A stretch of DNA of 24,000 bases from Eubacteriales bacterium. Lineage in GTDB: Bacteria > Bacillota > Clostridia > Oscillospirales > CAG-272. Shown here piece after piece: positions 5,145 through 17,519 of the stretch (positions within the stretch are counted from its first letter, which is position 1; each line of letters opens with the position of its first letter). Position numbers and translations under genes: made by a program. Under the pieces are notes generated by a model, which saw nothing but the letters and a program-made list of their open reading frames with translations, did not search any database and was not told where the DNA came from. The stretch covers positions 8,872 through 32,871 of the forward strand of contig JAZRLQ010000163.1 in the NCBI GenBank assembly GCA_045646925.1. The letters run 5' to 3'.

Positions 5145-5170
5145 ATCGTTGTATTGTTTGTAATTTTATA

Positions 5171-5270: not shown

Positions 5271-5382
5271 TGAAATCGGTTAGTGTGAATAACGCGAAGC
5301 AATCCCGAGCGTCAAACAAAACAATAATTCAATTTATTACTGAAAACGAAAGGCATTGTTTCGTGGAAGAGAGGTTTTATTT

Positions 5383-6096
5383 ATGGAAAAAGTAAAAAAA
5401 ATAGGGGGAATTGTCGGTAATACGATTATTTGGCTTTTTGTTGCCTTTTCCCTTGCAATCACCATTATGGTGTTTTCCGCTCAGCAGAGCTCGGACGGCA
5501 TTCCCGCCCTGTTCGGCAAGAGTATGCTCACCATCCAGACACCCTCGATGAAAGAGACTTACGACGTTGGCGACATGGTCTTCATGACGAAGCTCACCGA
5601 CGAAGACAAATATGAGCTGAAGGTGGGCGATATCATTACGTATCACGCGCCCATCGATATTGACCAGGACGGTCTGACGGGGGATATCAATACGCACCGT
5701 ATTTACTCCATCGATTCTGCGACGGGTCTCATTGTGACGAAGGGTGATGGCAATCTGATCCCCGATAATTACACGATCCACCGCAATGACGTTATCGGTA
5801 TTTGCACCGAGAACGGCAAACTTGACGGTGTTGGCAGCGTGGTTGAATTTCTCCGCTCCCGTATCGGATTTTTCGTTTGCATTGTATTGCCCTTGATTCT
5901 TTTCTTTGTTTTTGAACTCTATAACTTTATTACGATCCTTGCTTCCGAAAGAGCGAAGAAGGCTCCCATCGCAAAGGAGACCGAAGAAGAGATCAAACGC
6001 CGCGCGATCGAAGAATATATCAAGAGCCAGCAGGCTGCACAGGAAGCGGCTGCAGAAAAAGAAACTCCCGCCGATGAGAATTCTGCGGAGAAATAA
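5383..6096 (+). CDS. sipW: Signal peptidase I, SipW/archaeal-ER type (S26B), paralogue 1
   Basis: ATG at 5383 follows GGAAGAGAGG; the track's TTG at 5356 has no RBS. N-terminal TM helix, then QTPSMKET (catalytic Ser), INTHRIYS (His), TKGDGNLIPD, a C-terminal TM helix and an acidic/K-rich tail. The layout matches B. subtilis SipW (SGSMEP...THRIV...KGDNN) as I recall it. Confidence 0.85.
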   Translation: MEKVKKIGGIVGNTIIWLFVAFSLAITIMVFSAQQSSDGIPALFGKSMLTIQTPSMKETYDVGDMVFMTKLTDEDKYELKVGDIITYHAPIDIDQDGLTGDINTHRIYSIDSATGLIVTKGDGNLIPDNYTIHRNDVIGICTENGKLDGVGSVVEFLRSRIGFFVCIVLPLILFFVFELYNFITILASERAKKAPIAKETEEEIKRRAIEEYIKSQQAAQEAAAEKETPADENSAEK

Positions 6097-6127
6097 ACTA
6101 ATTTTTAGAAAGGACCGGTGATACGGA

Positions 6128-7687
6128 ATGGAAGGCTTTTTTGATTGGTTTTTTGCATTCTTGACAACAATGATCGACGGAATTTGGATGATTTTCTCCG
6201 GTATTTTCCGTGGCATCTTCCAGATTTTCAACGTCGTCAACTATTTCGAACTGTTTAAGAGTTATAAGGGCGGTTTTACCGCGATCGACTGGATCCTTGC
6301 AGTCATCAGCTTGTTTATGGTGCTTGCGATCCTTGGTATTCTTGTTTATCTCGCGGTTATCGGTATCAGAAAGTATATCAGATTCCGCAAATCCGCAGTT
6401 AACAACGAGGACCTTCTCGAAGAGCTTGCAACGCTCCACAGAGACGTTCTCAAGCTCACAAAAGAAAGAGAGAAGCTTCTTGCGCTCAAGATCGGTCAGA
6501 CCGATATTTCCATTAGCGACCTCAACGCTATTCTCTCTGATGGCGGTGACGAAGATGGTTATTCTGAAACCGACGACGGACGCGCAGATCTCGATGGAAG
6601 TGAGAATTTGCCTCGTTTCTTTAAACTCGATGCAATCGACCAGAAATATCTCAACTATGAAGCTCCCGAATACAGAACGGACTTCACACTGTATGACCTC
6701 TGCCGCGATTTCAGAAACTTCTGCTGCTCTCGCATGGGTCTTTACTATGAAGAAAAGGTCACCAGACTTATTTTCGCAGGTCTCGCTTCCACGAAGCTCA
6801 TTCTTTTGCAGGGTATTTCCGGTACCGGTAAAACATCTCTGCCTTACGCAATGGGTAAGTTCTTCCAGAAGGACGCGACCATCGTTTCCGTTCAGCCTTC
6901 CTGGCGTGACCGTACCGAGCTTTTCGGTTACTTCAACGAATTCTCGAAGCGCTTCAACGAAACCGACCTTCTCCGCCGCGTTTACGACGCTTCCTACAAC
7001 GATGATATCAACGTTATCATCCTCGACGAAATGAATATCGCCCGCGTCGAATACTATTTCGCGGAAATGCTTTCCATCATGGAAATGCCCGACCCCAGAG
7101 AATGGAAGATCGAACTCGTTCCTTCCTCCTGGGATAATGACCCCCAGAACCTCAAAGACGGTAAGCTTCTCATTCCTCAGAATACTTGGTACATCGGTAC
7201 GGCGAACAACGACGACTCGACCTTCTCGATCTCCGATAAGGTTTACGACCGTGCGCTTACCATCAATATCGATAATAAGGGTATGCCTTTCGAAGCTCCC
7301 GATACACCTCCGTCTCTCATCAGCTATTCCTCCGTCAACGCTCTCTACCAGAAGGCGATCGAGGATTATCCCGTTGACGAGCGTTACCTCCAGATGATCG
7401 AGGCGCTCGACACCTACGTTATCAAGAAATTCAGAGTTGCATTCGGTAACCGTATTATCAAGCAGCTTAAGATCTTCGTGCCCGTTTACGTTGCCTGCGG
7501 CGGTACTGCCGTTGAAGGTATCGACCATATCCTCGCTACCAAGGTCTTCAGAAAGTTTGAAATGCTCAACCTCTCTCTCATCAGAGACGAGATCAAGGGT
7601 CTTATCAACTATCTCAACACCATGTTCGGTAAGGATGCAATGAAGGAATGTATCGAATTCCTTGAAAGATTGCAGCGCACGTATTAA
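6128..7687 (+). CDS. Membrane-anchored McrB-like AAA+ GTPase (2 predicted TM helices, coiled coil, AAA_5/McrB-type core)
   Basis: Walker A is GISGTGKTS. VQPSWRDRTELFGYFN resembles McrB vqFH.sysYEDFi.Gy. Walker B and following residues VIILDEMNIARVEYYFAEMLSIME resemble McrB LDEINRA....FGEl..llE. YIGTANNDDST resembles the McrB iGTMNTADRS (NxxD) signature. The N-terminus has two hydrophobic helices (FFAFLTTMIDGIWMIFSGIF and WILAVISLFMVLAILGILVYLAVIGI), then a heptad-like EDLLEELATLHRDVLKLTKEREKLLALK. Confidence 0.8.
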   Translation: MEGFFDWFFAFLTTMIDGIWMIFSGIFRGIFQIFNVVNYFELFKSYKGGFTAIDWILAVISLFMVLAILGILVYLAVIGIRKYIRFRKSAVNNEDLLEELATLHRDVLKLTKEREKLLALKIGQTDISISDLNAILSDGGDEDGYSETDDGRADLDGSENLPRFFKLDAIDQKYLNYEAPEYRTDFTLYDLCRDFRNFCCSRMGLYYEEKVTRLIFAGLASTKLILLQGISGTGKTSLPYAMGKFFQKDATIVSVQPSWRDRTELFGYFNEFSKRFNETDLLRRVYDASYNDDINVIILDEMNIARVEYYFAEMLSIMEMPDPREWKIELVPSSWDNDPQNLKDGKLLIPQNTWYIGTANNDDSTFSISDKVYDRALTINIDNKGMPFEAPDTPPSLISYSSVNALYQKAIEDYPVDERYLQMIEALDTYVIKKFRVAFGNRIIKQLKIFVPVYVACGGTAVEGIDHILATKVFRKFEMLNLSLIRDEIKGLINYLNTMFGKDAMKECIEFLERLQRTY

Positions 7688-7730
7688 TTTTTAAATTCTA
7701 AAGAAAAAAGTCGCAAGGGAGGACCTTTCT

Positions 7731-9539
7731 TTGAATAACAATTACGAAAATTTCAGAGCCAAAGTGTTCTCCGCAATGAGAGGACTGGCAAATGATTGCC
7801 CGGAGTTTTCCGATGCGGAAATGCTGGTTGCGTCTTCTGAAGTCGATGCAACTTTAAAAAGAAGCACCGTACACAAAAATATTGATACCGAATGGGTCAG
7901 CAGAATCGAAGAAACGATCCCGTATCTCGATCTGATTGTTCGTAACCCCACGATCATGATCGAGGACATCGAAGAGATTCTTCCCGTCGAGCTTTCCCGC
8001 AGCGTTACGGAAAAGACTGTCAAGCATTTGGCTCAACATACCAATATGATCCTTACCATCACGGAGAAGGACGAGGTTATTCCTCAGAAGCTGCTCAACG
8101 TATATCATGAAGAGACGCTTCTTACATATGAAAACAAGTTCATCAATACGCTCCTCGCGCGCCTCACGGCGTTCGTTGATAAGCGTTATAAGCTGCTGCG
8201 CGGCGGACACGGAACTGAAAGAAATTATCAGTTCCGTTACTCCACGGAGTTCGATCACTTCGCTGACGAATATTCCGGGCGCAACACGGCGCAGATCAAG
8301 CTTTCCATCGACCTGACCTCCCCCGTGACAGAGGGACTCACCGAAGCGGAGCTTGAAGCAAACGAGAGATATATTTCGACGATGGAGCGCATTGAAAAGA
8401 TCAGTAATACGCTCACTTCCTATATGTCTTCTCCTTACATCAAGGCGCTGGGCAGAAACTATATCCGCCCGCCCGTGATCAGAACCAACGCGATTCTCAA
8501 GAATAAGAACATGAAGGTGTGTCTGAATCTTTGGGAATACATTGAGGGCTTTGACAAAGCCGGATATTCTTTCATCAACGACGAATATACGGAAATGCCC
8601 TCCGACAACTACATCTCCGATTTCTACTCCACCGTGGCTCTCCAGTACACCGATTTCTATAACGGCGTTGCGGAAAACGCGGAGGCAAACAGAATGCTCG
8701 CGAAGCGCCACATTTCCAATGTGGAACCCGATTTCTCTGCGGATTTCGACGTAGAGGAAATCAACGATTACGAGGTCTTCGACTCGGAATACAAGAAGAT
8801 GGTTCCGGTTTCCCGTTTGGCAAATGATGGTTCTCAACTTTCTGAGGACGAGTGCCGTGTAGGTGTTGCTGTTCTTGTTGCTTTAAAGGCTGATGAAATT
8901 CTTTTTGCGCCTATTCTTGCACAAGAAGCTGAAGAAAGAAGAATCGCAAGAGAAAAACGACTCGCTGAAGAAGAAGCAAAGAGACGTGCCGAAGAAGAAG
9001 CAAGAAGACGCGCCGAGGAAGAAGCAATTCGTCTTGCGGAAGAAGAAGCGAGACGTGCTGAAGAAGAACGACTCAGAAAGATTGCCGAGGAAGAAGCGAG
9101 AAGACGCGCCGAGGAAGAAGCAAGAATTCGCGCTGAAGAAGAAGCAAGAAGACTTGCAATTGAAAGAGAAGAGGAAGCAAGAAGACTTGCTGCCGAAAAA
9201 GAAGAAGCGAGACGTCTTGCGGAAGAAGCTGAAAAATATGGCTTTATCTTCCCTGATTCCAAGGATACATATAATGGAAAATCTATCGTTCTTCCGTATA
9301 CGAGAGAGCAGTATCTTGCTTTCCCGAGAAAGAAGAAAAAGAGCGTCCTCATGGATGTTAAGAAAATCAATTCTTATCATGAAAATTTGGAAGCGCTTGA
9401 ACTCCTTAAATCCAAAAATACTAATAATCCCAATGTGAAAGAACGTATCAGACTTCTTGAAAATCAGTTGAATGAAGAGTACAAGACTCTTCCGAAGGGT
9501 CAGCTTTGGGATTCTTGTATCCGTAAAGTGAAAAAATGA
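7731..9539 (+). CDS. Soluble 602-aa partner of the McrB-like ATPase (McrC position); N-terminal globular region, ~105-aa E/R/A helix, small basic C-terminal domain
   Basis: TTG start lies 8 nt after GGGAGG (7717-7722). No TM helix or signal peptide. TYENKFINTLLARL and NMKVCLNLWEYIEGF loosely recall the ENR...LFE.FV helical motifs of McrC-family proteins (from memory, unverified). I cannot find a convincing PD-(D/E)xK core. Residues ~398-502 are EEEARRRA-type repeats. The stop overlaps the next gene's start (ATGA at 9536-9539). Confidence 0.7.
   Translation: MNNNYENFRAKVFSAMRGLANDCPEFSDAEMLVASSEVDATLKRSTVHKNIDTEWVSRIEETIPYLDLIVRNPTIMIEDIEEILPVELSRSVTEKTVKHLAQHTNMILTITEKDEVIPQKLLNVYHEETLLTYENKFINTLLARLTAFVDKRYKLLRGGHGTERNYQFRYSTEFDHFADEYSGRNTAQIKLSIDLTSPVTEGLTEAELEANERYISTMERIEKISNTLTSYMSSPYIKALGRNYIRPPVIRTNAILKNKNMKVCLNLWEYIEGFDKAGYSFINDEYTEMPSDNYISDFYSTVALQYTDFYNGVAENAEANRMLAKRHISNVEPDFSADFDVEEINDYEVFDSEYKKMVPVSRLANDGSQLSEDECRVGVAVLVALKADEILFAPILAQEAEERRIAREKRLAEEEAKRRAEEEARRRAEEEAIRLAEEEARRAEEERLRKIAEEEARRRAEEEARIRAEEEARRLAIEREEEARRLAAEKEEARRLAEEAEKYGFIFPDSKDTYNGKSIVLPYTREQYLAFPRKKKKSVLMDVKKINSYHENLEALELLKSKNTNNPNVKERIRLLENQLNEEYKTLPKGQLWDSCIRKVKK
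8922..9236 (+). repeat. In-frame imperfect tandem repeat (about 24-nt / 8-aa period) encoding an E/R/A-rich helix
   Basis: The translation is QEAEERRIAREKRLAEEEAKRRAEEEARRRAEEEAIRLAEEEARRAEEERLRKIAEEEARRRAEEEARIRAEEEARRLAIEREEEARRLAAEKEEARRLAEEAEK. The 40-mers at 8988-9027 and 9084-9123 differ at 2 of 40 positions by my alignment, with an offset of 96 nt (4 x 24). Confidence 0.85.
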
Positions 9540-10126
9540 TTCAATTAAAAAAAATATCGGGTGTTCTCAAAATTGCGGCGACAATTTTTTGGTGGATCGC
9601 TACGGTTGCCATTGTCGTTTTGATCTGTATAATCATGGGTGCGAAGATAAAAGGTAAGGTTCCTTATCTCTTCGGTTACTCTGTGATGAATATTATCAGC
9701 GGCAGCATGGAGGATAGAATTCCTGCGGGAACCTATATTCTGATCAAAAAAACCGACGCGGCCGATATACAAAAGGGTGATATTATCTGTTTTTATTCAG
9801 ATGACCCTCGTATCCAAGGATATCCGAATACACATACTGTGATTGAAGATCCGATTCACGGTGAGAACGGAATCGAATTCATCACAAAGGGCGATGCGAA
9901 CCTCGTAAAAGATGATTATACCGCCAAGGGTGATAAATTGATAGGGAAATATGTGAAAAACCTCGACGGTTTGACGCGCTTTTCCCAATCACTCCAAGGT
10001 AACGCCATATTCTTCTGTTATATGATTTTAATGGGAATGTGTGTGATTTTTATGGTGGTTCCTGTATTCATAAAGGTTTTATCAAAAGATTCGGACGATG
10101 AAAATGCAAAGGATCAGCAGACTTGA
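9536..10126 (+). CDS. sipW: Signal peptidase I, SipW/archaeal-ER type (S26B), paralogue 2
   Basis: The ATG overlaps the upstream stop (ATGA). N-terminal TM helix, SGSMEDRIP (catalytic Ser), PNTHTVIE (His), TKGDANLVKDD, and a C-terminal TM helix (IFFCYMILMGMCVIFMVVPVFI). Confidence 0.85.
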   Translation: MIQLKKISGVLKIAATIFWWIATVAIVVLICIIMGAKIKGKVPYLFGYSVMNIISGSMEDRIPAGTYILIKKTDAADIQKGDIICFYSDDPRIQGYPNTHTVIEDPIHGENGIEFITKGDANLVKDDYTAKGDKLIGKYVKNLDGLTRFSQSLQGNAIFFCYMILMGMCVIFMVVPVFIKVLSKDSDDENAKDQQT

Positions 10127-10167
10127 TCCATTGGAGAGATGACTAAATGAAAGGATGAAAAATAGAT

Positions 10168-12444
10168 ATGGCCGATAAAACCAAAATAAAAAAACTGATG
10201 AAACATGCTGGAAAGATTTCCATCATTATAGCAGTGCTTTTTCTTACCTTTTATTTGATTACGATTATTACGAAATCGTCGGAATTTTATGCTGAATCCA
10301 CTGTGAAGAATGCTAAAATTTCTTTTGATAAGGATATGAACAATGTTTCCGCGTTGGTAGAGGAGCATTATGAAAATCTCTATGAGGTTGTCGATCATGT
10401 GAGTTATGCGAAAACAACGGAAGAAGTTATTGCAATCATGACTTCGTACATTGGCAGTGAACAGTTTGGTGATCTTCGTTATTATTCAAAAGGCGTGGCT
10501 TATGCTGCTACCGGTGCAATCATAGGCGATGATGTGAGCGGTCATGAGATGATCAAAGAACTTGCTCAAGGCAATAAGGCTGGTTGTACAGACGTATATC
10601 GAGATGGAAACGTGAAAATGGATTGCATTGCGTTCTTTATTCCCGTTCGCGGTTCTGAAGTTATCGATGGAATTGTCTCCGTTGTGCCGGCACGTAATAT
10701 TATTCAAGTTAGCGATATTATGCAGGATGAAACCTCTATGGTTGCTATTGTAGGGGCAAAGGGAAATATCTATGCGCGTAAGTTCGCAGAGAATTTTACG
10801 ACTGACGTAGGTGAAAACGTATATGATTTCCTTGAAGATTTTACCGCTAGTAAGACGATGGCGGATAATGTCAGAGGCGTGCTTAACGCCAAAGAGCTTT
10901 CTACGACAGAGATTCAGTCTGCGGGTGTTGATTATACAATTGTTGCGGAGCCGATCGAATCTTTTGACGGTTATCTGCATTTGATTACTATTAGCAAAAG
11001 CAATGATTTGATTATGACGGAGATTAGCTATATCCGTCACATAGTCAGTATTTTGTTGCTTGCGATCATCGGCTTCATTGTCGGTCTCGTGTTCGTATTC
11101 CTTTTCCAGAAAAAAGCAAAGGATGCGGTGATGACCGCAAACCTCAAGGATGCAGAGCTTGAATGTGCCAATATTGAGGGCTTCAGAAGAGCAGCTCTCA
11201 ATCTTTCTCACGGAAGCGATAAGCGTTACGCAGTCTGCGTATCCTCCATCCGCCAGTTCCATTTTGTCAAGGATAAATTCGGCGCGGATGCTTCCGATAA
11301 GCTTTTGAAATTTATTGCTCAGGTCTACAAGACCTTCTGTAACAAAAATGAAACCTTCGGTTATGCAGGTGACGGCAAGTTCCTGCTCTTTGCGGAATAC
11401 GCTTCCGAATCTGCATTCCGTGATAAACTGATGGTTCTTGAAAATATCGTTAATCAGCACGAGCTTCTCATGCAAAATCGCGTGAAGATCCGCTTCGCAA
11501 CGGGTATTTGTCTCGGCTTCGGACAGAAGAAACGTACGATCTCCGAAATGATCGACTGCGCTACCATCGTGTGCGAGGACGCGAAGAACGACGTTGCAAC
11601 GCCTTACGTGATCTACGTTGAAAACGTACGCGAAAAGATCAACCGCAGCGAACAGATCGAAGCGCAGATGGAGCACGCGTTGGATAACAACGAATTCAGA
11701 CTTTTCCTCCAGCCGAAATATAACGTTGCAACCGACTCGATTGACAGCGCGGAAGCGCTCGTCCGTTGGTTCGATCACCGCAAGGGCGATTATATTTACC
11801 CCGTAGAATTTATCGGTCTCTTTGAGACGAACGGCTTTATCGTGAAGATGGACCATTTCATCTATCTCGAGGTATTGAAATACATCAGCGAAGCGAGAGA
11901 GAAAAACGAGAAGATCGTTCCGATCTCCGTCAACGTTTCCCGCGTTACTGCAAGTAAAGACGATTTCGTTAACTTCTACGTAGGCAACAAGAGAAAGTAT
12001 ATGATCGACGACGATCTGATCAAGCTTGAATTTACCGAGACCTTCGCGGTTGAGGACTACACGAAGCTCGCAGAGATCGTAAAACAGCTTCAAGAGGGCG
12101 GTATCCGTTGCTCTATCGACGACTTCGGTGTCGGCTATTCTTCCTTCCGCGTTCTGAAGGAGCTTACGATGGACGAATTGAAGCTTGACCGCGTATTCCT
12201 TTCTAAAGGCGTCGACGTTCAGCGTGACGAAAAGATCATTTCCACCATCGTTTCCTTGGCGAATGAAATGGGAATGACCGTCGTTCAGGAGGGTGTCGAA
12301 ACCAAGGAAATGTTTGACCGCGTTTCCCGTTTGGGTATCAACGTCATTCAGGGTTATTACTACGCGAAGGCGATTCCTCTGGAAGAGTTCAAGATCTTCA
12401 TCAAGAGTAATACGTCCATCCGTTATAAATCCATCGTTAAATAA
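10168..12444 (+). CDS. Membrane sensor protein: extracytoplasmic Cache-like domain between two TM helices, degenerate GGDEF, intact EAL (predicted c-di-GMP phosphodiesterase)
   Basis: TM1 is ISIIIAVLFLTFYLITIIT. An extracytoplasmic region of about 270 aa precedes TM2 (VSILLLAIIGFIVGLVFVFLF). The GGDEF position reads YAGDGKF, so the motif is degenerate. EAL hallmarks are all present: EFRLFLQPKY, AEALVRW, FETNG, SVNVS, LEFTET, IDDFGVGYSS, KLDRVF, VQEGVET, IQGYYYAKA. Confidence 0.9.
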   Translation: MADKTKIKKLMKHAGKISIIIAVLFLTFYLITIITKSSEFYAESTVKNAKISFDKDMNNVSALVEEHYENLYEVVDHVSYAKTTEEVIAIMTSYIGSEQFGDLRYYSKGVAYAATGAIIGDDVSGHEMIKELAQGNKAGCTDVYRDGNVKMDCIAFFIPVRGSEVIDGIVSVVPARNIIQVSDIMQDETSMVAIVGAKGNIYARKFAENFTTDVGENVYDFLEDFTASKTMADNVRGVLNAKELSTTEIQSAGVDYTIVAEPIESFDGYLHLITISKSNDLIMTEISYIRHIVSILLLAIIGFIVGLVFVFLFQKKAKDAVMTANLKDAELECANIEGFRRAALNLSHGSDKRYAVCVSSIRQFHFVKDKFGADASDKLLKFIAQVYKTFCNKNETFGYAGDGKFLLFAEYASESAFRDKLMVLENIVNQHELLMQNRVKIRFATGICLGFGQKKRTISEMIDCATIVCEDAKNDVATPYVIYVENVREKINRSEQIEAQMEHALDNNEFRLFLQPKYNVATDSIDSAEALVRWFDHRKGDYIYPVEFIGLFETNGFIVKMDHFIYLEVLKYISEAREKNEKIVPISVNVSRVTASKDDFVNFYVGNKRKYMIDDDLIKLEFTETFAVEDYTKLAEIVKQLQEGGIRCSIDDFGVGYSSFRVLKELTMDELKLDRVFLSKGVDVQRDEKIISTIVSLANEMGMTVVQEGVETKEMFDRVSRLGINVIQGYYYAKAIPLEEFKIFIKSNTSIRYKSIVK

Positions 12445-12455
12445 GATTTTTAAAA

Positions 12456-12490
12456 GGACAGAGAAATTTCGCATTTCTCTGTCCTTTTTT
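12456..12490 (+). terminator. Rho-independent terminator ending the sipW to EAL operon
   Basis: GGACAGAGAAAT (12456-12467), loop TTCGC, ATTTCTCTGTCC (12473-12484), then TTTTTT (12485-12490). It starts 12 nt after the stop codon. Confidence 0.85.
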
Positions 12491-12591
12491 GCATCGTTAT
12501 TTTTAACAAATGGAACCTTTGATTTTTGGTGAAATAAGTGGGCAAATGTGGCATTTTTTTCACTTGAGTGATTTTTTCAGAGGATTGGATA

Positions 12592-12620
12592 TTGACAACA
12601 GACTATAAAAATGCTATAAT
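12592..12620 (+). promoter_or_regulatory. Consensus sigma-A promoter with extended -10
   Basis: TTGACA (12592-12597), 17-nt spacer, TGcTATAAT (12612-12620). It lies 37 nt upstream of the ATG at 12657. Confidence 0.7.
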
Positions 12621-12656
12621 AGGTTCAACAGTTAATCTTGATGGGGAAGAACATCC

Positions 12657-13226
12657 ATGTTGATTTTTATTTTGATTCCCTTGCTTATCGCTTATTTCAA
12701 GGGCTATCGCGTGTTGTCACTGTTCCGCGTTTTTGATATGTATCCGTTTTTCGCGGTATGTCTCGTTCACGGATTTTTCGTGATGAATGCGTGGTTTGGT
12801 AATTACAGCTTCGTGAAATATGCATCCATTTTGCAATATTTCATGATCGTTTCCTTGCTCCTTCCCGTTGTGCGCCGTCGATTTTTCGCTCCGACGCTGA
12901 TTGGCGTCGGTTTGACTATGCTCGGAACCGTGATGAATAAGATCGTCATCCATGCCAACGACGGAAAGATGCCTGTGTATCCCACTGTTTCCAAGTGGAT
13001 CGGGTATTACAAGGACGGACAGCTGGACGGCACGATCGACGAGCTGCATATCTTGATGGATGGTTCCTCGATGCTTCCTTTTTTGGCGGATTATTTTGAT
13101 TTTGGCTTATGCATTCTGAGTCCGGGCGACCTTCTCATTCATGCGTTTGCATCCATCATCATCTTTTATACCGTAAAATCCGTATGTCCGAAAGACAAGC
13201 GCGGGAAAGAAGCCGAGTTGATGTAA
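12657..13226 (+). CDS. Small polytopic membrane protein, DUF5317-like
   Basis: Four to five hydrophobic helices. NKIVIHANDGKMPVY and ILSPGDLLIHAF match my recollection of the conserved aNgG.MPV and S.GD.li motifs of DUF5317. This family assignment is from memory and unverified. Confidence 0.6.
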   Translation: MLIFILIPLLIAYFKGYRVLSLFRVFDMYPFFAVCLVHGFFVMNAWFGNYSFVKYASILQYFMIVSLLLPVVRRRFFAPTLIGVGLTMLGTVMNKIVIHANDGKMPVYPTVSKWIGYYKDGQLDGTIDELHILMDGSSMLPFLADYFDFGLCILSPGDLLIHAFASIIIFYTVKSVCPKDKRGKEAELM

Positions 13227-13245
13227 GGAAAGGCGGTTTTATTTC

Positions 13246-13785
13246 ATGTTGGAATACGTATATCTCTTTATAACCGATATTTTGCTTGGTTATTTTCCAC
13301 AGGCGGCGGGATGCGCGATCTGCTTGTTCGCAATCACGAATCAGGACATTCGTTCCCGTAAATTCATATATACTTCGTGTATCTATTCTCTGATCGCAAT
13401 GGTGATCCGATTTGCTTATAATCTTTCGCTCATTGATTTTGGATTCCATACCATCGTCATCTGGATGATATTCATCGTCGTTGCGATCGGATATTGCAGA
13501 TTTTCCGTCATGCAGTCCACACTCAGTATCTTGCTCTCGGGTATTATTATCGCTATTGCTGAGATCTTGACCGGACTCATTTTCGTTCTCGTGATCGGAA
13601 ACGACGCGTTCAATGAGATCATGAATAATACGAAGACGGTCGAAGGAAAGCTCATGAAATCGATCTGCGGTATCCCCGCAAATCTCTTCTTCCTCTTCGT
13701 CGTCATTGTTCTCTACTTCTTTATGAAAAAGAAAAGACAAAAATCTGCCGAAAAGACAAATGAATCAGCAGAAGTGACCGTTTGA
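13246..13785 (+). CDS. Polytopic membrane protein (about 5-6 TM helices), family unknown
   Basis: RBS AAGGAAAGG precedes the ATG. The protein is hydrophobic throughout and ends in a basic tail (KKKRQKSAEK). It sits 31 nt upstream of agrB on the same strand. Confidence 0.7.
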   Translation: MLEYVYLFITDILLGYFPQAAGCAICLFAITNQDIRSRKFIYTSCIYSLIAMVIRFAYNLSLIDFGFHTIVIWMIFIVVAIGYCRFSVMQSTLSILLSGIIIAIAEILTGLIFVLVIGNDAFNEIMNNTKTVEGKLMKSICGIPANLFFLFVVIVLYFFMKKKRQKSAEKTNESAEVTV

Positions 13786-13816
13786 TCGCGTCCGTTATGC
13801 TGAAGAAAGAAATGTT

Positions 13817-14455
13817 ATGGAACGTTTAGCGAAAAAAATCGCAAAATCCGTTGGCGAATCGCTTGGAAAAACAGAGGAGGAGGTCGCCGTCATCGCGTAC
13901 GGTTTGATCGGTATCCTTCAATTTTCCGCGATATTTCTCGTCGCGTCAGTAATCGGAATTATTTTCGGTTTCTGGCTTGAGGTGTTGACGGTATTCTTAT
14001 CCGTCGGCTTCCTGCGCCGCTTCACCGGAGGCGCGCATTCTTCGGGTTTGTACAGTTGTCTTTTTTACAGTGTTATTTTCGTTTGTGGGATCTCCTCGCT
14101 TGCGCATTACGTCTTGTCTGCGTTGCCGTTTGCAGCGAATTGCATTTTGTGCGGACTGATCTTCTCGTTCGGCTATCTGATGGTTGCGCTCAAAGCGCCG
14201 GTCGCTCCGCCCAACAAGCCCTGCCGCTCCGAAGCAAAACGCAAAAGACTGCGCAAGGGCGCGTTCATAGCGCTTTCGGCTTTTTTGATCTTCGTCGCGT
14301 TGACCGTCATTTTCAAGGATTCGGCGCCGAGACTTTATACGATCGGTTTGGCTCTTTCATTGTCAACGCTTTGGCAAATTGCCATGATGACGAAGGTCGG
14401 ACATATATTCATTACCTTTATTGACGGTATATTTATGAAAAAAGAAAGTCAGTAA
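13817..14455 (+). CDS. agrB: AgrB-family membrane cysteine endopeptidase (autoinducing-peptide maturation)
   Basis: LRRFTGGAHSSGLYSC carries the G-G-x-H motif with a Cys exactly 7 residues after the His. This is the same spacing as catalytic H77/C84 of S. aureus AgrB. The protein is polytopic with a basic loop (KPCRSEAKRKRLRKG) and is followed by an AgrD-like ORF. Confidence 0.85.
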   Translation: MERLAKKIAKSVGESLGKTEEEVAVIAYGLIGILQFSAIFLVASVIGIIFGFWLEVLTVFLSVGFLRRFTGGAHSSGLYSCLFYSVIFVCGISSLAHYVLSALPFAANCILCGLIFSFGYLMVALKAPVAPPNKPCRSEAKRKRLRKGAFIALSAFLIFVALTVIFKDSAPRLYTIGLALSLSTLWQIAMMTKVGHIFITFIDGIFMKKESQ

Positions 14456-14532
14456 AATTTTCCCTTTTGGTATCATCTCGCCTTTGACGGCGGATAGATA
14501 TAAAAAAATTCGGGAGAAAGGAGGCTTTTGAT

Positions 14533-14658
14533 ATGAAAGCCAAAATTCTGATGTCGATTTCTGTAATCGCTACCATGTTTGCAGCATTTGCGGCTTCTTC
14601 GGCCTGCTTCTGGTGGATCTATCAGCCCGAAGAACCCGCATCCTTGCAGGACAAGTAA
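14533..14658 (+). CDS. agrD: AgrD-like autoinducing peptide precursor (41 aa; predicted thiolactone ring CFWWI)
   Basis: Not in the ORF track. RBS GGAGAAAGGAGG ends 8 nt before the ATG. My translation is MKAKILMSISVIATMFAAFAASSACFWWIYQPEEPASLQDK. It has an amphipathic N-terminal helix, a Cys plus 4 residues, then an acidic YQPEEP..L tail. C. perfringens AgrD, as I recall it, ends ...TSACLWFTHQPEEPKSLRDE with ring CLWFT. Confidence 0.85.
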   Translation: MKAKILMSISVIATMFAAFAASSACFWWIYQPEEPASLQDK

Positions 14659-14671
14659 TGCAGGGTTGCGA

Positions 14672-14705
14672 ACGAGAGCCGAGAGAGCTCGGCTCTCGTT
14701 TTTCT
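14672..14705 (+). terminator. Rho-independent terminator after agrD
   Basis: ACGAGAGCCGAG (14672-14683), loop AGAG, CTCGGCTCTCGT (14688-14699), then TTTTTCT. Confidence 0.8.
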
Positions 14706-14741
14706 ATCGAAAAATATAAAAGTAACATGAGGTGACTTCCG

Positions 14742-16400
14742 ATGATACAATCTACAAAGGAATTAACTCAAGAAATAAAGAATATATTCGTTACGCTGAA
14801 GCTGCTCGTCCTTTTTCTTTGCGTAATTCCGGTTATCCAAAAGATATTTTCAACGACTTCAACGGATGAGACATTGTTCTTGAGCTTTTCGAAAATGCTT
14901 CTTTTCGTCGGCGTTATTTTGATCGTCGTTGTCTTCTGGGCGGTTACGAATTACGCGTTCAAAAATCAACGCGTCCGTTCGATCGTCGAGGTCGTGACGA
15001 TGTACTTCTTCTGCTTTCTGTGCTACAGAAGCACGGGAACGCATTTGAGTAGCTATAAGTTCATTTTCGCGCTGATCATTTTGCTCTATACCATGGAATT
15101 GGGACTTCGTTTCGGTATGATCTTTTCCATTGCGGCAGGTACGATCATTATCGTTTGCGATTATCTGAGCTGCGCGGAAGCGCTGAGATCGCAGTATTTC
15201 CAAGCGGATATTATGCTTTTGGGAACGTTTGCCCTGCTTGCTTATATCGTCGGCTTCTACGTGGAAAAGGACCGCGCGGTGATCGCTTCACTAAAGGAAT
15301 CGGTCAACAAGGACGCTTTGACGAAGCTATACAATCACCGTTATTTCCACGAATATATGCACGAGATCATCAACCGTCCTCACACGGAAGGCGGACGTGA
15401 GTATCTTTTCATTATGGACATTGACTTTTTCAAGGTCTATAACGATACCCACGGTCATCTGAAGGGGGACGTCGTTCTCGCGAAGATCGCCGAAATATCC
15501 AAAAAGACGATCACCACCGGCTTCGTATTCCGATACGGCGGTGAAGAATTCGCCGTGCATTTGTTTGCGCGTGACCCAAATCACGCCTTCGATATTGCAA
15601 ATAAGCTCAGAACCGCGATCGCGGATTACGTTTTCGAGGGTGAAGAGCTCATGCCCGGACACAACGTCACCGTTTCCATCGGCGTGTCCGAAAAGAGAGA
15701 AGAGGACGATACCGTTGCCGACTGGATCGAGCGCGCGGACAATGCGCTCTACAGAGCGAAGGCTTTCCGCAAAAACTGCGTTCAGTTCTATTCCTCCGTG
15801 TTCGACAGATTCGATCATCTCGACCAGATCAACGACGACGAACGTATCATCTCCATCAAGACCTTGCTTTCGGTCATTAACTCCAGAGACCGCTATACTT
15901 ATAACCACACGGACCGAGTCGTTCACTATTGCGAGATATTTTCCAAATACGCGAAGCTTTCCGAGGAGGAATCCCGTAAGCTTCTGTACAGCGCGTATCT
16001 GCACGACATCGGAAAGATCAATATTCCGCAGGAGATTCTGATCAGTGAAAAACGCCTCACCGACGAGGAATGGGCGCTGATGAAAAAGCACCCGTGGGAC
16101 GGCGCGGACATTGTTCGCAAAATCGAAAATTTCGAAACGATTGCGGATATCGTTCAGCAGCACCATGAAAAATATAACGGCGGCGGATATCCTCAGGGTA
16201 TCAAGGGCGAAGAGATCCATTATCTTGCCCGTGTTCTGACGCTTGCGGACAGCTTTGACGCGATGACGTCAAAACGTCCGTACCAGAAGGTCAAGACCTT
16301 CGAGGAGGCGTTCGCGGAGATCCGTAATTGCAAGGGAACGCATTTCGATCCCGAGCTTGCCGAAATTTTCGTGCAGGCGATCGGAGAGACCTACTGCTGA
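14742..16400 (+). CDS. 6-TM membrane sensor fused to an intact GGDEF (diguanylate cyclase) and an intact HD-GYP (c-di-GMP phosphodiesterase)
   Basis: RBS GAGGTG. About six hydrophobic helices occupy residues 1-190. GGDEF hallmarks: DALTKLYNHRYF, DIDFFKVYNDTHGHLKGD, RYGGEEF, SIGVS, ADNALYRAKAFRKN. There is no RxxD I-site five residues upstream of GGEEF (ITTG instead). HD-GYP hallmarks: HTDRV, LHDIGKINIP, KKHP, HHEKYNGGGYPQG, LADSFDAMTSKRPY. Confidence 0.9.
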   Translation: MIQSTKELTQEIKNIFVTLKLLVLFLCVIPVIQKIFSTTSTDETLFLSFSKMLLFVGVILIVVVFWAVTNYAFKNQRVRSIVEVVTMYFFCFLCYRSTGTHLSSYKFIFALIILLYTMELGLRFGMIFSIAAGTIIIVCDYLSCAEALRSQYFQADIMLLGTFALLAYIVGFYVEKDRAVIASLKESVNKDALTKLYNHRYFHEYMHEIINRPHTEGGREYLFIMDIDFFKVYNDTHGHLKGDVVLAKIAEISKKTITTGFVFRYGGEEFAVHLFARDPNHAFDIANKLRTAIADYVFEGEELMPGHNVTVSIGVSEKREEDDTVADWIERADNALYRAKAFRKNCVQFYSSVFDRFDHLDQINDDERIISIKTLLSVINSRDRYTYNHTDRVVHYCEIFSKYAKLSEEESRKLLYSAYLHDIGKINIPQEILISEKRLTDEEWALMKKHPWDGADIVRKIENFETIADIVQQHHEKYNGGGYPQGIKGEEIHYLARVLTLADSFDAMTSKRPYQKVKTFEEAFAEIRNCKGTHFDPELAEIFVQAIGETYC

Positions 16401-16424
16401 CACATTTTATTTAAGAAACGAGAA

Positions 16425-16464
16425 CTTCCTTGTGAGCCGTCAACGGCTTGTAAGGGAGTTTTTT
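16425..16464 (+). terminator. Rho-independent terminator
   Basis: 15-bp stem CTTCCTTGTGAGCCG (16425-16439) pairing with CGGCTTGTAAGGGAG (16444-16458), including four G-U pairs. Loop TCAA, then TTTTTT. Confidence 0.8.
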
Positions 16465-16497
16465 GTTTACGCGGCAATTCGTCATTGGATTTTATTC

Positions 16498-16526
16498 TTG
16501 ACAAATACTGCGGAAAATTTTATAAT
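16498..16526 (+). promoter_or_regulatory. Consensus sigma-A promoter
   Basis: TTGACA (16498-16503), 17-nt spacer, TATAAT (16521-16526). It lies inside the 5' end of the track ORF 16485-17519, which argues for a later start codon. Confidence 0.7.
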
Positions 16527-16562
16527 AAAAATATAATGATGAAATTGGAAAGGATCGTAACG

Positions 16563-17519
16563 ATGACGGCATACGAAACTTATAAGGCTATCCGAAGCAA
16601 TATGGAGCAAACGATCGCAGGCAAGGGGGACGTGATCGATCTCGTGATCATCGCGCTTTTTTGCGGCGGACATATTCTGATCGAGGACGTACCCGGAACG
16701 GGAAAAACGATGATCGCGCGCTCGCTCGCGGCAAGCATCGACGGCGAATATAAGAGAATTCAGTTCACTCCCGACCTCTTGCCCTCCGATATCACGGGCA
16801 TCAATTATTTTAACGTGAAGGAATCGGAGTTCCGATTCATGAAGGGACCCGTTTTCACCAATATTCTTCTCGCGGACGAGATCAACCGCGCCACGCCGAA
16901 AACGCAGGCGGGGCTTCTCGAATGTATGGAGGAGCATACGGCGACGGTCGACGGAAACACGTATCTGCTCGCCGATCCTTTTTTGGTTATCGCGACACAG
17001 AATCCGCTGGAGAGTATGGGAACGTATCCTCTGCCCGAAGCGCAGCTTGACCGTTTTCTCATCAAAACCGCCGTCGGTTATCCCGATTTTGCAAGCGCTG
17101 TGGAGATCCTCCGAAGATTCGGGGAACAACGCGGTGTGAAGGAGAACCGCTCCGTTGTGACACTTGACGACGTAACGTCGGCTATGAGAGAGACGGCGAG
17201 GGTTTACTGCCATGAGGATCTTTTCCGATATATCACCCGTGTGATCGAAATGACGAGAAAAATGCCCGGCGTCGTTCTCGGCGCGAGTCCGCGCGCGGCG
17301 CTTTCGCTTCTGATGGTGGCGAAGGGCTTTGCCATTCTCGATGGAAGAAATTACGTTCTGCCCGACGACGTCAAATCCGCCGCGATCCCCGTTCTGAATC
17401 ACAGACTGATCCTCACAAGCTCGGAAATGCTGAAAAAGAATTCTGCCGAGCGGATCATCTGCGAGGTCTTGTCAAAAACGCCCGTTCCCACGGAAACGGT
17501 ATTCGACGGAAGAGCGTAA
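16563..17519 (+). CDS. moxR: MoxR-family AAA+ ATPase (AAA_3)
   Basis: ATG at 16563 lies 7 nt after GGAAAGGA and downstream of the promoter. LIEDVPGTGKTMIARSLA (Walker A), RIQFTPDLLPSDITG, LLADEINRATPKTQAGLLECMEE (Walker B), VIATQNPLESMGTYPLPEAQLDRF. Confidence 0.9.
   Translation: MTAYETYKAIRSNMEQTIAGKGDVIDLVIIALFCGGHILIEDVPGTGKTMIARSLAASIDGEYKRIQFTPDLLPSDITGINYFNVKESEFRFMKGPVFTNILLADEINRATPKTQAGLLECMEEHTATVDGNTYLLADPFLVIATQNPLESMGTYPLPEAQLDRFLIKTAVGYPDFASAVEILRRFGEQRGVKENRSVVTLDDVTSAMRETARVYCHEDLFRYITRVIEMTRKMPGVVLGASPRAALSLLMVAKGFAILDGRNYVLPDDVKSAAIPVLNHRLILTSSEMLKKNSAERIICEVLSKTPVPTETVFDGRA

What the first reader, a model, noticed from the sequence alone, without database searches (positions are those of the whole stretch)
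12592..16464. Orphan agrBD with no agrCA; the next gene is a 6-TM GGDEF/HD-GYP enzyme, a possible peptide-to-c-di-GMP link
agrB and agrD are clear, but no histidine kinase or response regulator exists anywhere in the 24 kb. Only 83 nt downstream on the same strand lies a gene for about six TM helices, comparable in size to the AgrC sensor module. These are fused directly to an intact cyclase (GGEEF, no I-site) and an intact HD-GYP phosphodiesterase. The 83-nt gap is mostly the agrD terminator and I see no -35/-10 pair in it. Expression may therefore depend on read-through from the agr promoter at 12592. One hypothesis is that the thiolactone peptide is sensed by this membrane domain and converted directly into a change in c-di-GMP. 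That signal would then act on the riboswitch-gated operon 9 kb upstream. Receptors for orphan clostridial Agr systems are largely unresolved.
Basis: inference. Interest (0 to 1): 0.8.

Follow-up and report, generated by a model that had tools for sequence, protein, structure and literature searches.

The report
Peptide quorum-sensing cassette wired to c-di-GMP
The agrBD genes here belong to a five-gene cassette found across Clostridia, including the well-studied Clostridium perfringens agr locus, whose last gene is a membrane enzyme that makes and breaks c-di-GMP and is the best candidate for a new, non-kinase receptor of the cyclic signalling peptide.

Summary
agrB (13817-14455) and agrD (14533-14658) are real. 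No kinase or response regulator turns up in the 24 kb. The next gene, 83 nt on, encodes a 6-TM protein with intact GGEEF and HD-GYP motifs.

The five genes form one cassette:
- 53 of 55 informative genomes anchored on DUF5317 carry all five genes.
- 80 of 89 informative metagenome loci anchored on agrD carry a gene with the same 6-TM domain just downstream.
- The C. perfringens agr locus has the same order, so CPE1560 is probably this enzyme.

Two results point to the 6-TM domain as the peptide sensor. In a sister cassette the same domain is fused to a PAS-histidine kinase instead of GGDEF/HD-GYP. Among close relatives, its divergence tracks changes in the four hypervariable ring residues of AgrD.

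Nothing is shown biochemically, and VirS is already a reported receptor in C. perfringens. The nearby riboswitch link is not conserved.

I found no published link between agrBD and this enzyme. The idea is directly testable.

The parts
12592..12620 (+). Sigma-70-type promoter of the cassette (TTGACA-17 nt-TATAAT, with TG before the -10)
   Evidence: 12 of 12 consensus match. It lies 36 nt upstream of the DUF5317 start codon. It follows a terminator-like hairpin plus T-run after the upstream EAL gene (about 12455-12491), read by eye from the sequence.
12657..13226 (+). Gene 1: DUF5317 membrane protein (189 aa). It carries invariant polar residues: N101, G103-M-P-V107, D128, H131, D145, D148, D158, H162.
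   Evidence: Pfam PF17248, E 1.5e-16. Alignment A1. First gene of the cassette in 53 of 55 informative genome loci. Its counterpart in the C. perfringens-type locus L075 (8092-8658) is presumably CPE1563.
13246..13785 (+). Gene 2: 'X175', an unannotated stand-alone 5-helix membrane protein (179 aa). Near-invariant residues are R55, G66, T69, E106 and Y157.
   Evidence: No Pfam or NCBIfam match. The family is small, always stand-alone, and 150-190 aa long. AF2 model pLDDT 95. No PDB fold or sequence relative. Present in both the GGDEF-type and the kinase-type cassettes.
13817..14455 (+). Gene 3: AgrB, the membrane peptidase that cyclises AgrD (212 aa)
   Evidence: PF04647, E 1.9e-31. The sequence shows GGAH-x6-C, matching the His-to-Cys spacing of the S. 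aureus AgrB catalytic pair (H77/C84, recalled from memory).
14533..14658 (+). Gene 4: AgrD precursor (41 aa). The predicted thiolactone ring is C-F-W-W-I, followed by YQPEEP.
   Evidence: TIGR04223, E 8.8e-14. Family motif is [ST]SAC-x4-[YHN]QPxEP. Only the four ring residues are hypervariable, with 42 distinct rings in 50 cassettes. The C. perfringens AgrD has SACLWFTHQPEEP.
14670..14708 (+). Intrinsic-terminator-like hairpin (14-bp stem, 4-nt loop, then a U-run) between agrD and the enzyme gene. Probably an attenuator that sets a low receptor-to-peptide expression ratio.
   Evidence: MFE -30.4 kcal/mol for the 91-nt gap region, z = -3.6. A stable hairpin with a T-containing tail lies at the same place in 40 of 55 loci, with unrelated sequences. 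Also present in the C. perfringens-type locus.
14742..15296 (+). Gene 5, N-terminal part: 6-TM sensor-type domain ('TMN', aa 1-185). Family invariants are E83, S103, K106, D140 and D156.
   Evidence: AF2 helices 2-37, 44-72, 76-97, 107-120, 122-143, 146-189. Pfam 6TM_PilS matches 10 of 50 members and DUF4118 matches 7 of 50; the window copy itself has no hit. The same domain is fused to PAS-HisKA-HATPase_c in the sister cassette.
15306..15776 (+). Gene 5, middle part: GGDEF diguanylate cyclase domain with an intact GGEEF active site and no RxxD I-site
   Evidence: PF00990, E 8.7e-33, aa 189-345. R264, Y265, G266, G267, E269, D226, N234 and D235 are invariant in 119 homologues. Foldseek matches to WspR, PleD and SadC.
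15864..16358 (+). Gene 5, C-terminal part: HD-GYP c-di-GMP phosphodiesterase domain with all metal-binding motifs
   Evidence: PF13487, E 1.3e-40, aa 375-539. H421-D422, H450, H474-H475-E476 and G480/G482-Y-P484 are invariant. Best PDB fold matches are 4MCW (PmGH) and 4R8Z (PA4781).
16425..16468 (+). Terminator-like hairpin plus T-run that ends the transcription unit after gene 5
   Evidence: Read by eye from the sequence: CTTCCTTGTGAGCCG-TCAA-CGGCTTGTAAGGGAG-TTTTTTGTTT. The stem is imperfect and the consensus scan did not list it. The next perfect promoter is at 16498-16526.

Best explanation
**What it is.** The window carries one copy of a conserved five-gene clostridial Agr-type cassette. 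The order is promoter, DUF5317 protein, X175 protein, AgrB, AgrD, an attenuating hairpin, then a 6TM-GGDEF-HD-GYP enzyme. It is orthologous to the C. perfringens agr locus (CPE1563 to CPE1560).

**Shown for relatives.** AgrB cyclises AgrD. By analogy with the C. perfringens CLWFT peptide, the product here is a very hydrophobic five-residue thiolactone, C-F-W-W-I.

**Inferred.**
- The fifth gene takes the place that AgrC/AgrA occupy in canonical loci, and is the cassette's built-in signal transducer.
- Its six-helix membrane domain has almost no extracellular loops. It would perceive the peptide in the outer leaflet of the membrane, possibly together with X175.
- The continuous TM6 helix would then shift the balance between the intact cyclase and the intact HD-GYP phosphodiesterase.
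- Peptide density would thereby become a change in cellular c-di-GMP without any phosphorelay.
- The hairpin after agrD keeps enzyme expression well below peptide expression.
- DUF5317 and X175 are accessory membrane proteins, for peptide maturation or export, or as co-receptors. Their roles are open.

The direction of the c-di-GMP change is unknown.
For: **1. Synteny from three independent anchors.**
- Enzyme anchor: six orthologues at 43-63% identity all sit in the same five-gene order, with unrelated flanks.
- DUF5317 anchor: of 63 species-level genome loci, 53 carry the full cassette, 8 are cut by a contig end, and 2 are exceptions.
- AgrD anchor: of 89 metagenome loci with room downstream, 80 have a gene with the same 6-TM domain directly after agrD.

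**2. The cassette is inherited as a unit.** Pairwise distance matrices of all parts correlate at r = 0.79-0.87.

**3. Output-domain swap.**
- In a sister cassette (X175-AgrB-AgrD-X) the gene after agrD has the same 6-TM domain fused to PAS-HisKA-HATPase_c. The domain HMM scores E 3e-31 over positions 8-182 of 185, and all family invariants are kept.
- These kinase-fused domains are 30-46% identical to a GGDEF-type copy on the same contig (L094).
- A few AgrD genes of the same motif family sit next to canonical AgrC-like kinase plus LytTR regulator genes instead. The position is therefore a receptor position.

**4. Co-variation with the ring.**
- Only the four ring residues of AgrD vary.
- The test used 40 close cassette pairs and controlled for catalytic-domain distance. 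Ring differences correlate with divergence of the 6-TM domain (partial r 0.71) and X175 (0.66). The correlation is weaker for DUF5317 (0.37) and AgrB (0.38).
- For identical-ring pairs the TM-to-catalytic divergence ratio is 0.98. For pairs with two or more ring changes it is 1.46. The GGDEF and HD-GYP ratios stay flat.

**5. Both catalytic centres are invariant** over 119 homologues down to 37% identity.

**6. The TM domain is of a sensor type.** Members match 6TM_PilS, DUF4118 and MASE-type models.

**7. No conserved kinase or regulator next to the cassette.** This holds for eight annotated loci and for the 94 immediate neighbours of 50 cassettes.

**8. Literature.** Additional receptors for the C. 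perfringens peptide are considered possible, and an unidentified ~75 kDa pulldown band was noted (PMC7492741). The C. difficile AgrD1 receptor is unknown (PMC10602386).
Against: - No experiment shows peptide binding or any peptide-dependent enzyme activity.
- In C. perfringens, which carries the orthologous cassette, VirS/VirR is the reported receptor, and most Agr-dependent toxin regulation runs through it (PMC7492741, PMC10602386).
- Over all 1225 cassette pairs, the ring-versus-6-TM co-variation is weak. The partial r is 0.08, and it turns negative once the other proteins are controlled for. X175 scores higher.
- The close-pair test rests on non-independent pairs, only six of which have identical rings.
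- Substitutions linked to ring change are only slightly enriched in the outer membrane half (ratio 1.22 against 1.11).
- A strong terminator-like hairpin separates agrD from the enzyme gene, so co-expression is not assured.
- One genome has the four upstream genes without the enzyme (L031).
- The TM domain shows no similarity to the AgrC sensor, and the window copy hits no Pfam sensor model.
Confidence: 0.55

Rival explanations
1. The enzyme is a co-located and possibly co-transcribed output, not a receptor. The peptide would be sensed by a VirS/AgrC-type kinase encoded elsewhere. The 6-TM domain would respond to some other membrane cue. Quorum sensing and c-di-GMP would then be linked only through shared transcription from the cassette promoter.
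For: - VirS is the reported receptor in C. perfringens, which has the orthologous cassette (PMC7492741).
- A terminator-like hairpin separates agrD from the enzyme gene.
- The TM domain is not AgrC-like.
- The all-pairs co-variation is weak.
Against: - This does not explain why the same 6-TM domain follows agrD with two different outputs.
- It does not explain why the domain's divergence tracks ring changes among close relatives while the catalytic domains do not.
- About 90% adjacency across several orders of Clostridia, with all flanks different, is more than co-regulation usually preserves.
Confidence: 0.22
2. X175, possibly with DUF5317, is the component that recognises the ring. It would act either as a co-receptor handing the signal to the 6-TM enzyme within the membrane, or as a ring-specific maturation or export factor. 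The 6-TM domain would then follow ring changes only indirectly.
For: - X175 evolves fastest (mean p-distance 0.72). It shows the best ring co-variation over all pairs (partial r 0.26) and nearly the best among close pairs (0.66).
- It is the only accessory gene shared by both the GGDEF-type and the kinase-type cassettes.
- It is duplicated in some cassettes.
- Complementation of a C. perfringens agrB mutant needed the two upstream ORFs as well (PMC2706048).
Against: - X175 is never fused to a signalling domain.
- It has no recognisable fold or catalytic motif.
- Its faster evolution alone may inflate its correlation with a fast-saturating ring distance.
- The complementation result may simply reflect the promoter lying upstream of the first ORF.
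Confidence: 0.15
3. The enzyme monitors the producing machinery rather than the extracellular peptide. Its TM domain would contact AgrB, X175 or DUF5317 and report the flux of AgrD processing. This would feed c-di-GMP back on production or couple it to cell state.
For: - Four membrane proteins are inherited as one unit.
- The TM domain has very short extracellular loops.
- 6TM_PilS-type domains are reported to sense a membrane-embedded protein segment. This rests on my own recollection of PilS-PilA work and was not checked here.
Against: - No evidence of contact between these proteins.
- The kinase-type sister cassette lacks DUF5317.
- Ring-specific divergence fits ligand recognition at least as well.
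Confidence: 0.08

Closest known systems
[quoted passage not shown]
   Same: - Same gene order and families: DUF5317 (188 aa), X175-type protein (153 aa), AgrB, AgrD, then a 563-aa GGDEF/HD-GYP protein (L075).
- The AgrD motifs are nearly identical: SACLWFTHQPEEPKSLRDE there, SACFWWIYQPEEPASLQDK here.
- The four upstream genes are co-transcribed in C. perfringens, and the two upstream ORFs were needed for complementation (PMC2706048).
   Different: - The published description stops at agrD. I found no paper that discusses the downstream GGDEF/HD-GYP gene.
- In C. perfringens a separate kinase, VirS, is the reported receptor. Whether the window's organism has one cannot be told from 24 kb.
- The assignment of locus tags CPE1563, CPE1562 and CPE1560 to these genes is inferred from gene order.
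Canonical agrBDCA (Staphylococcus aureus type)
   Same: - AgrB plus AgrD produce a cyclic thiolactone.
- A multi-pass membrane sensor is encoded directly after agrD.
- The ring residues are hypervariable, with signs of co-diversification between peptide and sensor.
   Different: - No AgrC (HPK10 kinase) and no AgrA (LytTR regulator).
- The sensor domain is unrelated in sequence.
- The output is c-di-GMP turnover.
- Two extra membrane genes are present.
- A hairpin separates agrD from the sensor gene.
One-component autoinducer receptors with c-di-GMP outputs (RpfR, a PAS-GGDEF-EAL receptor for the BDSF fatty-acid signal in Burkholderia; RpfC/RpfG with an HD-GYP output in Xanthomonas). Recalled from my own knowledge, not tested here.
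   Same: The logic is the same: a cell-density signal is converted directly, or almost directly, into a c-di-GMP change by a GGDEF/EAL/HD-GYP protein.
   Different: - Those signals are fatty acids sensed by a cytoplasmic PAS domain or by a hybrid kinase in Gram-negative bacteria.
- Here the signal is a ribosomal cyclic peptide.
- The proposed sensor is a 6-TM domain in Gram-positive anaerobes.
Sister cassette found here: X175-AgrB-AgrD-[6TM-PAS-HisKA-HATPase_c]
   Same: - Same 6-TM domain with all invariants kept, same X175 and AgrB families, same AgrD motif family, and the same position directly after agrD.
- Both cassette types lie in tandem on contig L094.
   Different: - The output is an orphan histidine kinase with no regulator gene beside it.
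- DUF5317 is absent.
- The AgrD leader differs.
- It may correspond to the 'AgrC' kinases without AgrA described in C. autoethanogenum (PMC8748961). That was not tested.
PilS-type 6TM and KdpD-type DUF4118 membrane sensor domains
   Same: - All-helical membrane-embedded input domains with minimal loops, found on signalling proteins.
- Pfam 6TM_PilS matches 10 of 50 members and DUF4118 matches 7 of 50.
   Different: - The matches are weak, with best E-values of 3e-5 and 2e-6.
- The window copy matches neither model.
- No shared ligand is implied.

Membership tests
Agr-type peptide quorum sensing (AgrB/AgrD production half) | AgrB family membrane peptidase | tested here: met
   PF04647, E 1.9e-31, covering positions 5-184 of the 185-position model. 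GGAH-x6-C is present in the sequence.
Agr-type peptide quorum sensing (AgrB/AgrD production half) | AgrD precursor with a Cys five residues before the cleavage site, and a conserved acidic, proline-containing C-terminal recognition tail | tested here: met
   TIGR04223, E 8.8e-14, score 51.3 against a cutoff of 19. The sequence reads SSAC-FWWI-YQPEEP.
Canonical agrBDCA system | AgrC-type histidine kinase (HATPase_c_5 / HPK10) encoded in the locus | tested here: not met
   - No kinase domain in any of the 19 long ORFs scanned in the window.
- None next to the cassette in eight annotated loci.
- Not among the top families of 94 immediate neighbours.
Canonical agrBDCA system | AgrA-type LytTR response regulator encoded in the locus | tested here: not met
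   The same scans found no LytTR domain. Response_reg appeared in only 2 of 94 neighbours.
AgrC-type sensor domain | Sequence homology of the membrane domain to the AgrC N-terminal sensor | tested here: not met
   hhalign of the 50-member 6-TM profile against S. aureus AgrC residues 1-216 gave probability 0.2%. X175 was likewise negative.
C. perfringens-type Agr-like cassette | Gene order DUF5317, small membrane protein, AgrB, AgrD on one strand behind one promoter | tested here: met
   Window genes compared with L075 and L073. The four-gene operon is shown by RT-PCR in PMC2706048.
C. perfringens-type Agr-like cassette | The 6TM-GGDEF-HD-GYP gene lies directly after agrD | tested here: met
   - L075 10001-11692 encodes a protein named 'diguanylate cyclase [Clostridium perfringens]' (P0155).
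- 53 of 55 informative genome loci.
- At least 65 of 89 informative metagenome loci.
Diguanylate cyclase (GGDEF) | Intact GG[DE]EF active site and Mg/substrate-binding residues | tested here: met
   RYGGEEF is present. D226, N234 and D235 are invariant in 119 homologues. TIGR00254, E 5.9e-38.
Diguanylate cyclase (GGDEF) | Cyclase activity | not testable with these tools
   Needs an enzyme assay.
HD-GYP c-di-GMP phosphodiesterase | HD, HHE and GYP motifs that bind the metal centre | tested here: met
   H421-D422, H474-H475-E476 and G-x-G-Y-P 480-484 are invariant. PF13487, E 1.3e-40. Fold match to 4MCW, E 2e-11.
HD-GYP c-di-GMP phosphodiesterase | Phosphodiesterase activity on c-di-GMP | not testable with these tools
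   Needs an enzyme assay.
6TM_PilS / DUF4118-type membrane sensor domains | Match to the Pfam model above its curated cutoff | tested here: inconclusive
   - P0173 scores 27.5 bits against a cutoff of 27 for 6TM_PilS.
- 10 of 50 members match 6TM_PilS and 7 of 50 match DUF4118 at E < 0.01.
- The window copy has no hit.
Autoinducing-peptide receptor (functional class) | Binds the cognate peptide and changes output activity in response | not testable with these tools
   Only indirect evidence exists: position in the cassette, the output-domain swap, and ring co-variation.

The most novel reading that the evidence does not exclude
The 6-TM domain defines a second lineage of Agr peptide receptors, previously unrecognised and unrelated to AgrC.
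- It is dedicated to agrBD cassettes across Clostridia.
- It is wired either to a bifunctional c-di-GMP enzyme or to orphan PAS-histidine kinases. Those kinases could feed Spo0A.
- If true, this would supply the missing receptor class for 'orphan' clostridial Agr systems.
- It would also give C. perfringens a second, VirS-independent output of its peptide signal, through c-di-GMP.
- DUF5317 and X175 would be new accessory proteins of peptide maturation or perception.
Probability: 0.45. Interest if true: 0.9.

Novelty: new variant of a known kind. Interest (0 to 1): 0.8.

Why it matters
Receptors for agrBD-only systems in Clostridia are a long-standing gap. The C. difficile AgrD1 receptor is still unknown, and additional C. 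perfringens receptors are suspected.

This work turns one odd adjacency into a defined gene family with a clear prediction. A cyclic peptide pheromone would be read by a one-component membrane enzyme and converted into c-di-GMP. That messenger governs motility, adhesion, biofilm, sporulation and toxin expression in these bacteria.

I know of no peptide quorum-sensing system in Gram-positive bacteria with a c-di-GMP enzyme as its receptor.

The cassette includes the agr locus of C. perfringens, which is genetically tractable and for which synthetic peptides already exist. The idea can therefore be tested at once.

The sister cassette, with the same sensor on an orphan kinase, suggests a parallel route from peptide to phosphorylation.

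Tried and rejected
- **Exact look-up of the window enzyme:** not on record.
- **Homology among the four membrane families** (X175, 6-TM domain, DUF5317, AgrB): none by hhalign, all probabilities below 3%. X175 is therefore not a detached copy of the sensor.
- **AgrC sensor against the 6-TM domain and X175:** no similarity. The AgrC sequence was recalled from memory.
- **PDB relatives.** By sequence: none for DUF5317, X175 or the 6-TM domain. By fold: none for X175, best E 0.42. For the full-length model only the catalytic domains match.
- **All-pairs partial Mantel test:** the 6-TM signal is weak (0.08). It is confounded by saturation and by differing evolutionary rates. I replaced it with a close-pair analysis, which has its own caveats.
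- **Outer versus inner membrane-half enrichment** of ring-linked substitutions: only a slight trend.
- **Conservation of a nearby c-di-GMP riboswitch:** none in six other loci.
- **Metagenome scan with the 6-TM alignment:** I used an AgrD DNA pattern instead.
- **Literature:** no paper held in the library mentions DUF5317, and none links agrBD with the adjacent GGDEF/HD-GYP gene. Ohtani 2009 is not held.
- **Own promoter for gene 5:** only a 9-of-12 match whose -10 overlaps the start codon.

Full report
**1. What is in the window.**

On the + strand, behind a perfect sigma-70-type promoter (12592-12620), lie five genes:
- a DUF5317 membrane protein (12657-13226; Pfam E 1.5e-16);
- a 179-aa multi-pass membrane protein with no family match, which I call X175 (13246-13785);
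- AgrB (13817-14455; PF04647, E 1.9e-31);
- AgrD (14533-14658; TIGR04223, E 8.8e-14...SSAC-FWWI-YQPEEP...);
- after an 83-nt gap, a 552-aa protein with GGDEF and HD-GYP domains (14742-16400).

The gap is dominated by a 14-bp GC-rich hairpin with a U-run (14670-14708). A second terminator-like hairpin follows the enzyme gene (about 16425-16468, read by eye).

Pfam scans of the 19 long ORFs examined found no histidine kinase, receiver or LytTR domain. A c-di-GMP-I riboswitch is at 5164-5240.

It overlooked the two genes between the promoter and agrB.

**2. The enzyme.**

An alignment of 119 full-length homologues, down to 37% identity, keeps these residues invariant:
- the GGEEF site;
- the Mg/substrate-binding residues D226, N234 and D235;
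- the HD, HHE and GxGYP motifs.

Both activities are therefore under selection. The window copy lacks the RxxD I-site, while 55 of 118 homologues have it.

The AlphaFold2 model (pLDDT 85.6) shows six membrane helices with very short loops. TM6 continues as one helix into the GGDEF domain. The catalytic domains match solved cyclases and the HD-GYP enzymes 4MCW and 4R8Z.

The membrane domain ("TMN") of the window copy hits no Pfam model. Of 50 family members, 10 match 6TM_PilS and 7 match DUF4118, with scattered MASE-type hits. It is a sensor-type domain but not AgrC-like.

**3. Is the adjacency conserved?** Yes, from three independent anchors.

- *Enzyme anchor.* Six orthologues at 43-63% identity all lie in the order DUF5317, X175, AgrB, AgrD, enzyme. 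Their flanks are completely different.
- *DUF5317 anchor.* A scan of one genome per species returned 63 loci. They come from Oscillospiraceae, Christensenellaceae, Lachnospiraceae, Proteiniclasticum, Acetobacterium, Anaerofustis, Clostridium and others.
  - With HMMs built from the first loci, 53 carry the full cassette and 8 are cut by a contig end.
  - Two are exceptions. L031 has four genes followed by an SLH protein. L058 has DUF5317 alone.
- *AgrD anchor.* A DNA pattern for S-A-C-x4-Y-Q-P-x-E-P found 113 AgrD genes in metagenomes.
  - Of the 89 with at least 600 bp downstream, 80 have a TMN-domain gene directly after agrD.
  - The nine others include three next to canonical AgrC-like kinase genes, two of them with a LytTR regulator as well.

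Distance matrices of all cassette parts correlate at r = 0.79-0.87, so the cassette is inherited as a unit.

**4. Link to a studied system.**

A search with the C. perfringens AgrD sequence, followed by a search with the neighbouring enzyme, led to a contig (L075). Its AgrD is MKKLNKNLLTVFAALTTVIATTVATSACLWFTHQPEEPKSLRDE. Its enzyme is the protein NCBI names "diguanylate cyclase [Clostridium perfringens]".

The gene order there is DUF5317 (188 aa), a 153-aa protein, AgrB, AgrD, GGDEF/HD-GYP (563 aa), again with a hairpin after agrD.

This matches the published operon CPE1563-CPE1562-agrB-agrD. In that work complementation needed the two upstream ORFs (PMC2706048). The downstream CPE1560 is mentioned there only as a landmark.

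I found no paper in the library that discusses this gene, or DUF5317, in connection with Agr.

VirS is the reported receptor in C. perfringens. The authors allow for further receptors and mention an unidentified ~75 kDa pulldown band (PMC7492741). The C. difficile AgrD1 receptor is still unknown (PMC10602386).

**5. Is the membrane domain the sensor?** Two new lines of evidence bear on this.

*Output-domain swap.* The AgrD-anchored sample revealed a sister cassette, X175-AgrB-AgrD-X.
- Gene X has the same TMN domain. The HMM scores E 3e-31 over positions 8-182 of 185, and all invariants are kept.
- These domains are 30-46% identical to a GGDEF-type TMN on the same contig. That is more than the 22% between the window and C. 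perfringens TMNs.
- Here the domain is fused to PAS-HisKA-HATPase_c, with no regulator gene beside it.
- Contig L094 carries both cassette types in tandem.
- One input domain in the receptor position, with two interchangeable outputs, is what a dedicated sensor module would look like.

*Co-variation with the ring.* AgrD is almost invariant except for the four ring residues after the Cys. There are 42 distinct rings in 50 cassettes, and the residues are nearly all aromatic or aliphatic.
- The test used 40 close pairs and controlled for catalytic-domain distance. Ring differences correlate with TMN divergence (partial r 0.71) and X175 divergence (0.66). The correlation is weaker for DUF5317 (0.37) and AgrB (0.38).
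- Identical-ring pairs have a TMN-to-catalytic ratio of 0.98, against 1.46 for pairs with two or more ring changes. The GGDEF and HD-GYP ratios stay flat.

*Caveats.*
- The pairs are not independent, and only six have identical rings.
- Over all pairs the TMN signal is weak and X175 is stronger.
- Topological enrichment of the ring-linked substitutions is slight.

**6. The accessory genes.**

DUF5317 has a set of invariant Asp, His and Asn residues, which suggests a catalytic or metal-binding site.

X175 is a small family, always stand-alone and 150-190 aa long. Its model is confident (pLDDT 95), yet it has no solved relative by fold or sequence. None of the four membrane families is homologous to another.

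DUF5317 occurs almost only with the GGDEF-type cassette. X175 occurs with both types.

Their roles remain open: peptide maturation or export, or co-reception.

**7. Expression.**

A stable hairpin lies between agrD and the enzyme gene in 40 of 55 loci, with unrelated sequences. I read this as an attenuator that gives abundant peptide mRNA and little receptor mRNA. This is inference only.

**8. What is not supported.**

The proposed action on the riboswitch-gated operon 9 kb upstream is not a conserved feature, since six other loci have no such riboswitch within 10 kb. Any c-di-GMP riboswitch in the genome could still respond.

Extra c-di-GMP genes are, however, the commonest immediate neighbours of the cassette: GGDEF 6, HD_5 4 and EAL 3 of 94 neighbours.

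**9. Verdict.**

The adjacency is real, ancient and widespread. It includes a model pathogen's agr locus.

The best-supported mechanism is a peptide-to-c-di-GMP one-component receptor, possibly working with X175. I put this at about 0.55.

The main rival is that the enzyme is a co-located output while a VirS-type kinase elsewhere senses the peptide. I put that at about 0.22.

This is a new variant of Agr quorum sensing, unreported in the literature I could search, and immediately testable.

Noticed in passing
L094 192-9036; also L092, L108, L109, L136, L169, L177, L190: A sister cassette, X175-AgrB-AgrD-[6TM-PAS-HisKA-HATPase_c]. It uses the same 6-TM domain, lacks DUF5317 and has no response regulator beside it. 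L094 carries a GGDEF-type and two kinase-type units in tandem. These orphan PAS kinases resemble clostridial sporulation kinases, and may be the 'AgrC without AgrA' described in acetogens (PMC8748961).
   Followed up: partly
window 5164-12444: The c-di-GMP-I riboswitch (5164-5240) precedes a same-strand run of genes. These are two S26/SipW-like signal peptidases (5356-6096, 9536-10126) and two unknown proteins (6128-7687, 7731-9539). Only 41 nt further on is a TM protein with a degenerate GGDEF and an intact EAL domain (10168-12444). If co-transcribed, a c-di-GMP-gated operon would end in a c-di-GMP phosphodiesterase, which could form a feedback loop.
   Followed up: no
window 8-4261 and 4307-5068: A 1417-aa ORF with no Pfam match at all, followed by a 253-aa ORF with only a weak calycin-like hit. 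They lie just upstream of the riboswitch and could encode a large surface or matrix protein.
   Followed up: no
L004 5733-7448, L006 11882-14257, L007 5512-7485, L036 8631-9887, L051 8591-9646, L054 14471-15964, L059 5757-9863, L068 6417-9719; window 10168-12444: A second c-di-GMP turnover gene (GGDEF-EAL, GGDEF-HD-GYP or HD-GYP) often sits within about 100-600 bp of the cassette. These are the most frequent families among its immediate neighbours: GGDEF 6, HD_5 4 and EAL 3 of 94.
   Followed up: partly
L059, L065, L068, L108, L177, L189; L054 13951-14442: X175 is duplicated in tandem in several cassettes, and in L054 an extra copy follows the enzyme gene. Duplication of the fastest-evolving component may matter for specificity.
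   Followed up: no
L031 10001-13673; L058 10001-10564: Two exceptions to the five-gene rule. L031 has the four upstream genes followed by an SLH-domain protein instead of the enzyme. L058 has DUF5317 alone, between a P-type ATPase/methyltransferase pair and an antiporter.
   Followed up: partly
window 16485-16563: A second perfect consensus promoter (16498-16526) lies inside the mechanically called start of the MoxR-type AAA+ ORF (16485-17519). The real start codon is therefore probably one of the ATGs downstream of 16530.
   Followed up: no
Literature: PMC7492741, discussion: Pulldowns with the C. perfringens signalling peptide showed an unidentified band of ~75 kDa that is not VirS. The enzyme encoded after agrD is 563 aa, roughly 65 kDa. 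The sizes are close but not equal, so this is only a lead.
   Followed up: no
L114 4277-6129: An apparently decayed cassette. It has DUF5317, AgrB and AgrD, then only a 91-aa HD-GYP remnant. No TMN domain or X175 was detected.
   Followed up: no
L007 12356-12446: A group II intron D1-D4 fragment (35.4 bits, just above the threshold) lies about 700 bp downstream of the cassette in one locus.
   Followed up: no
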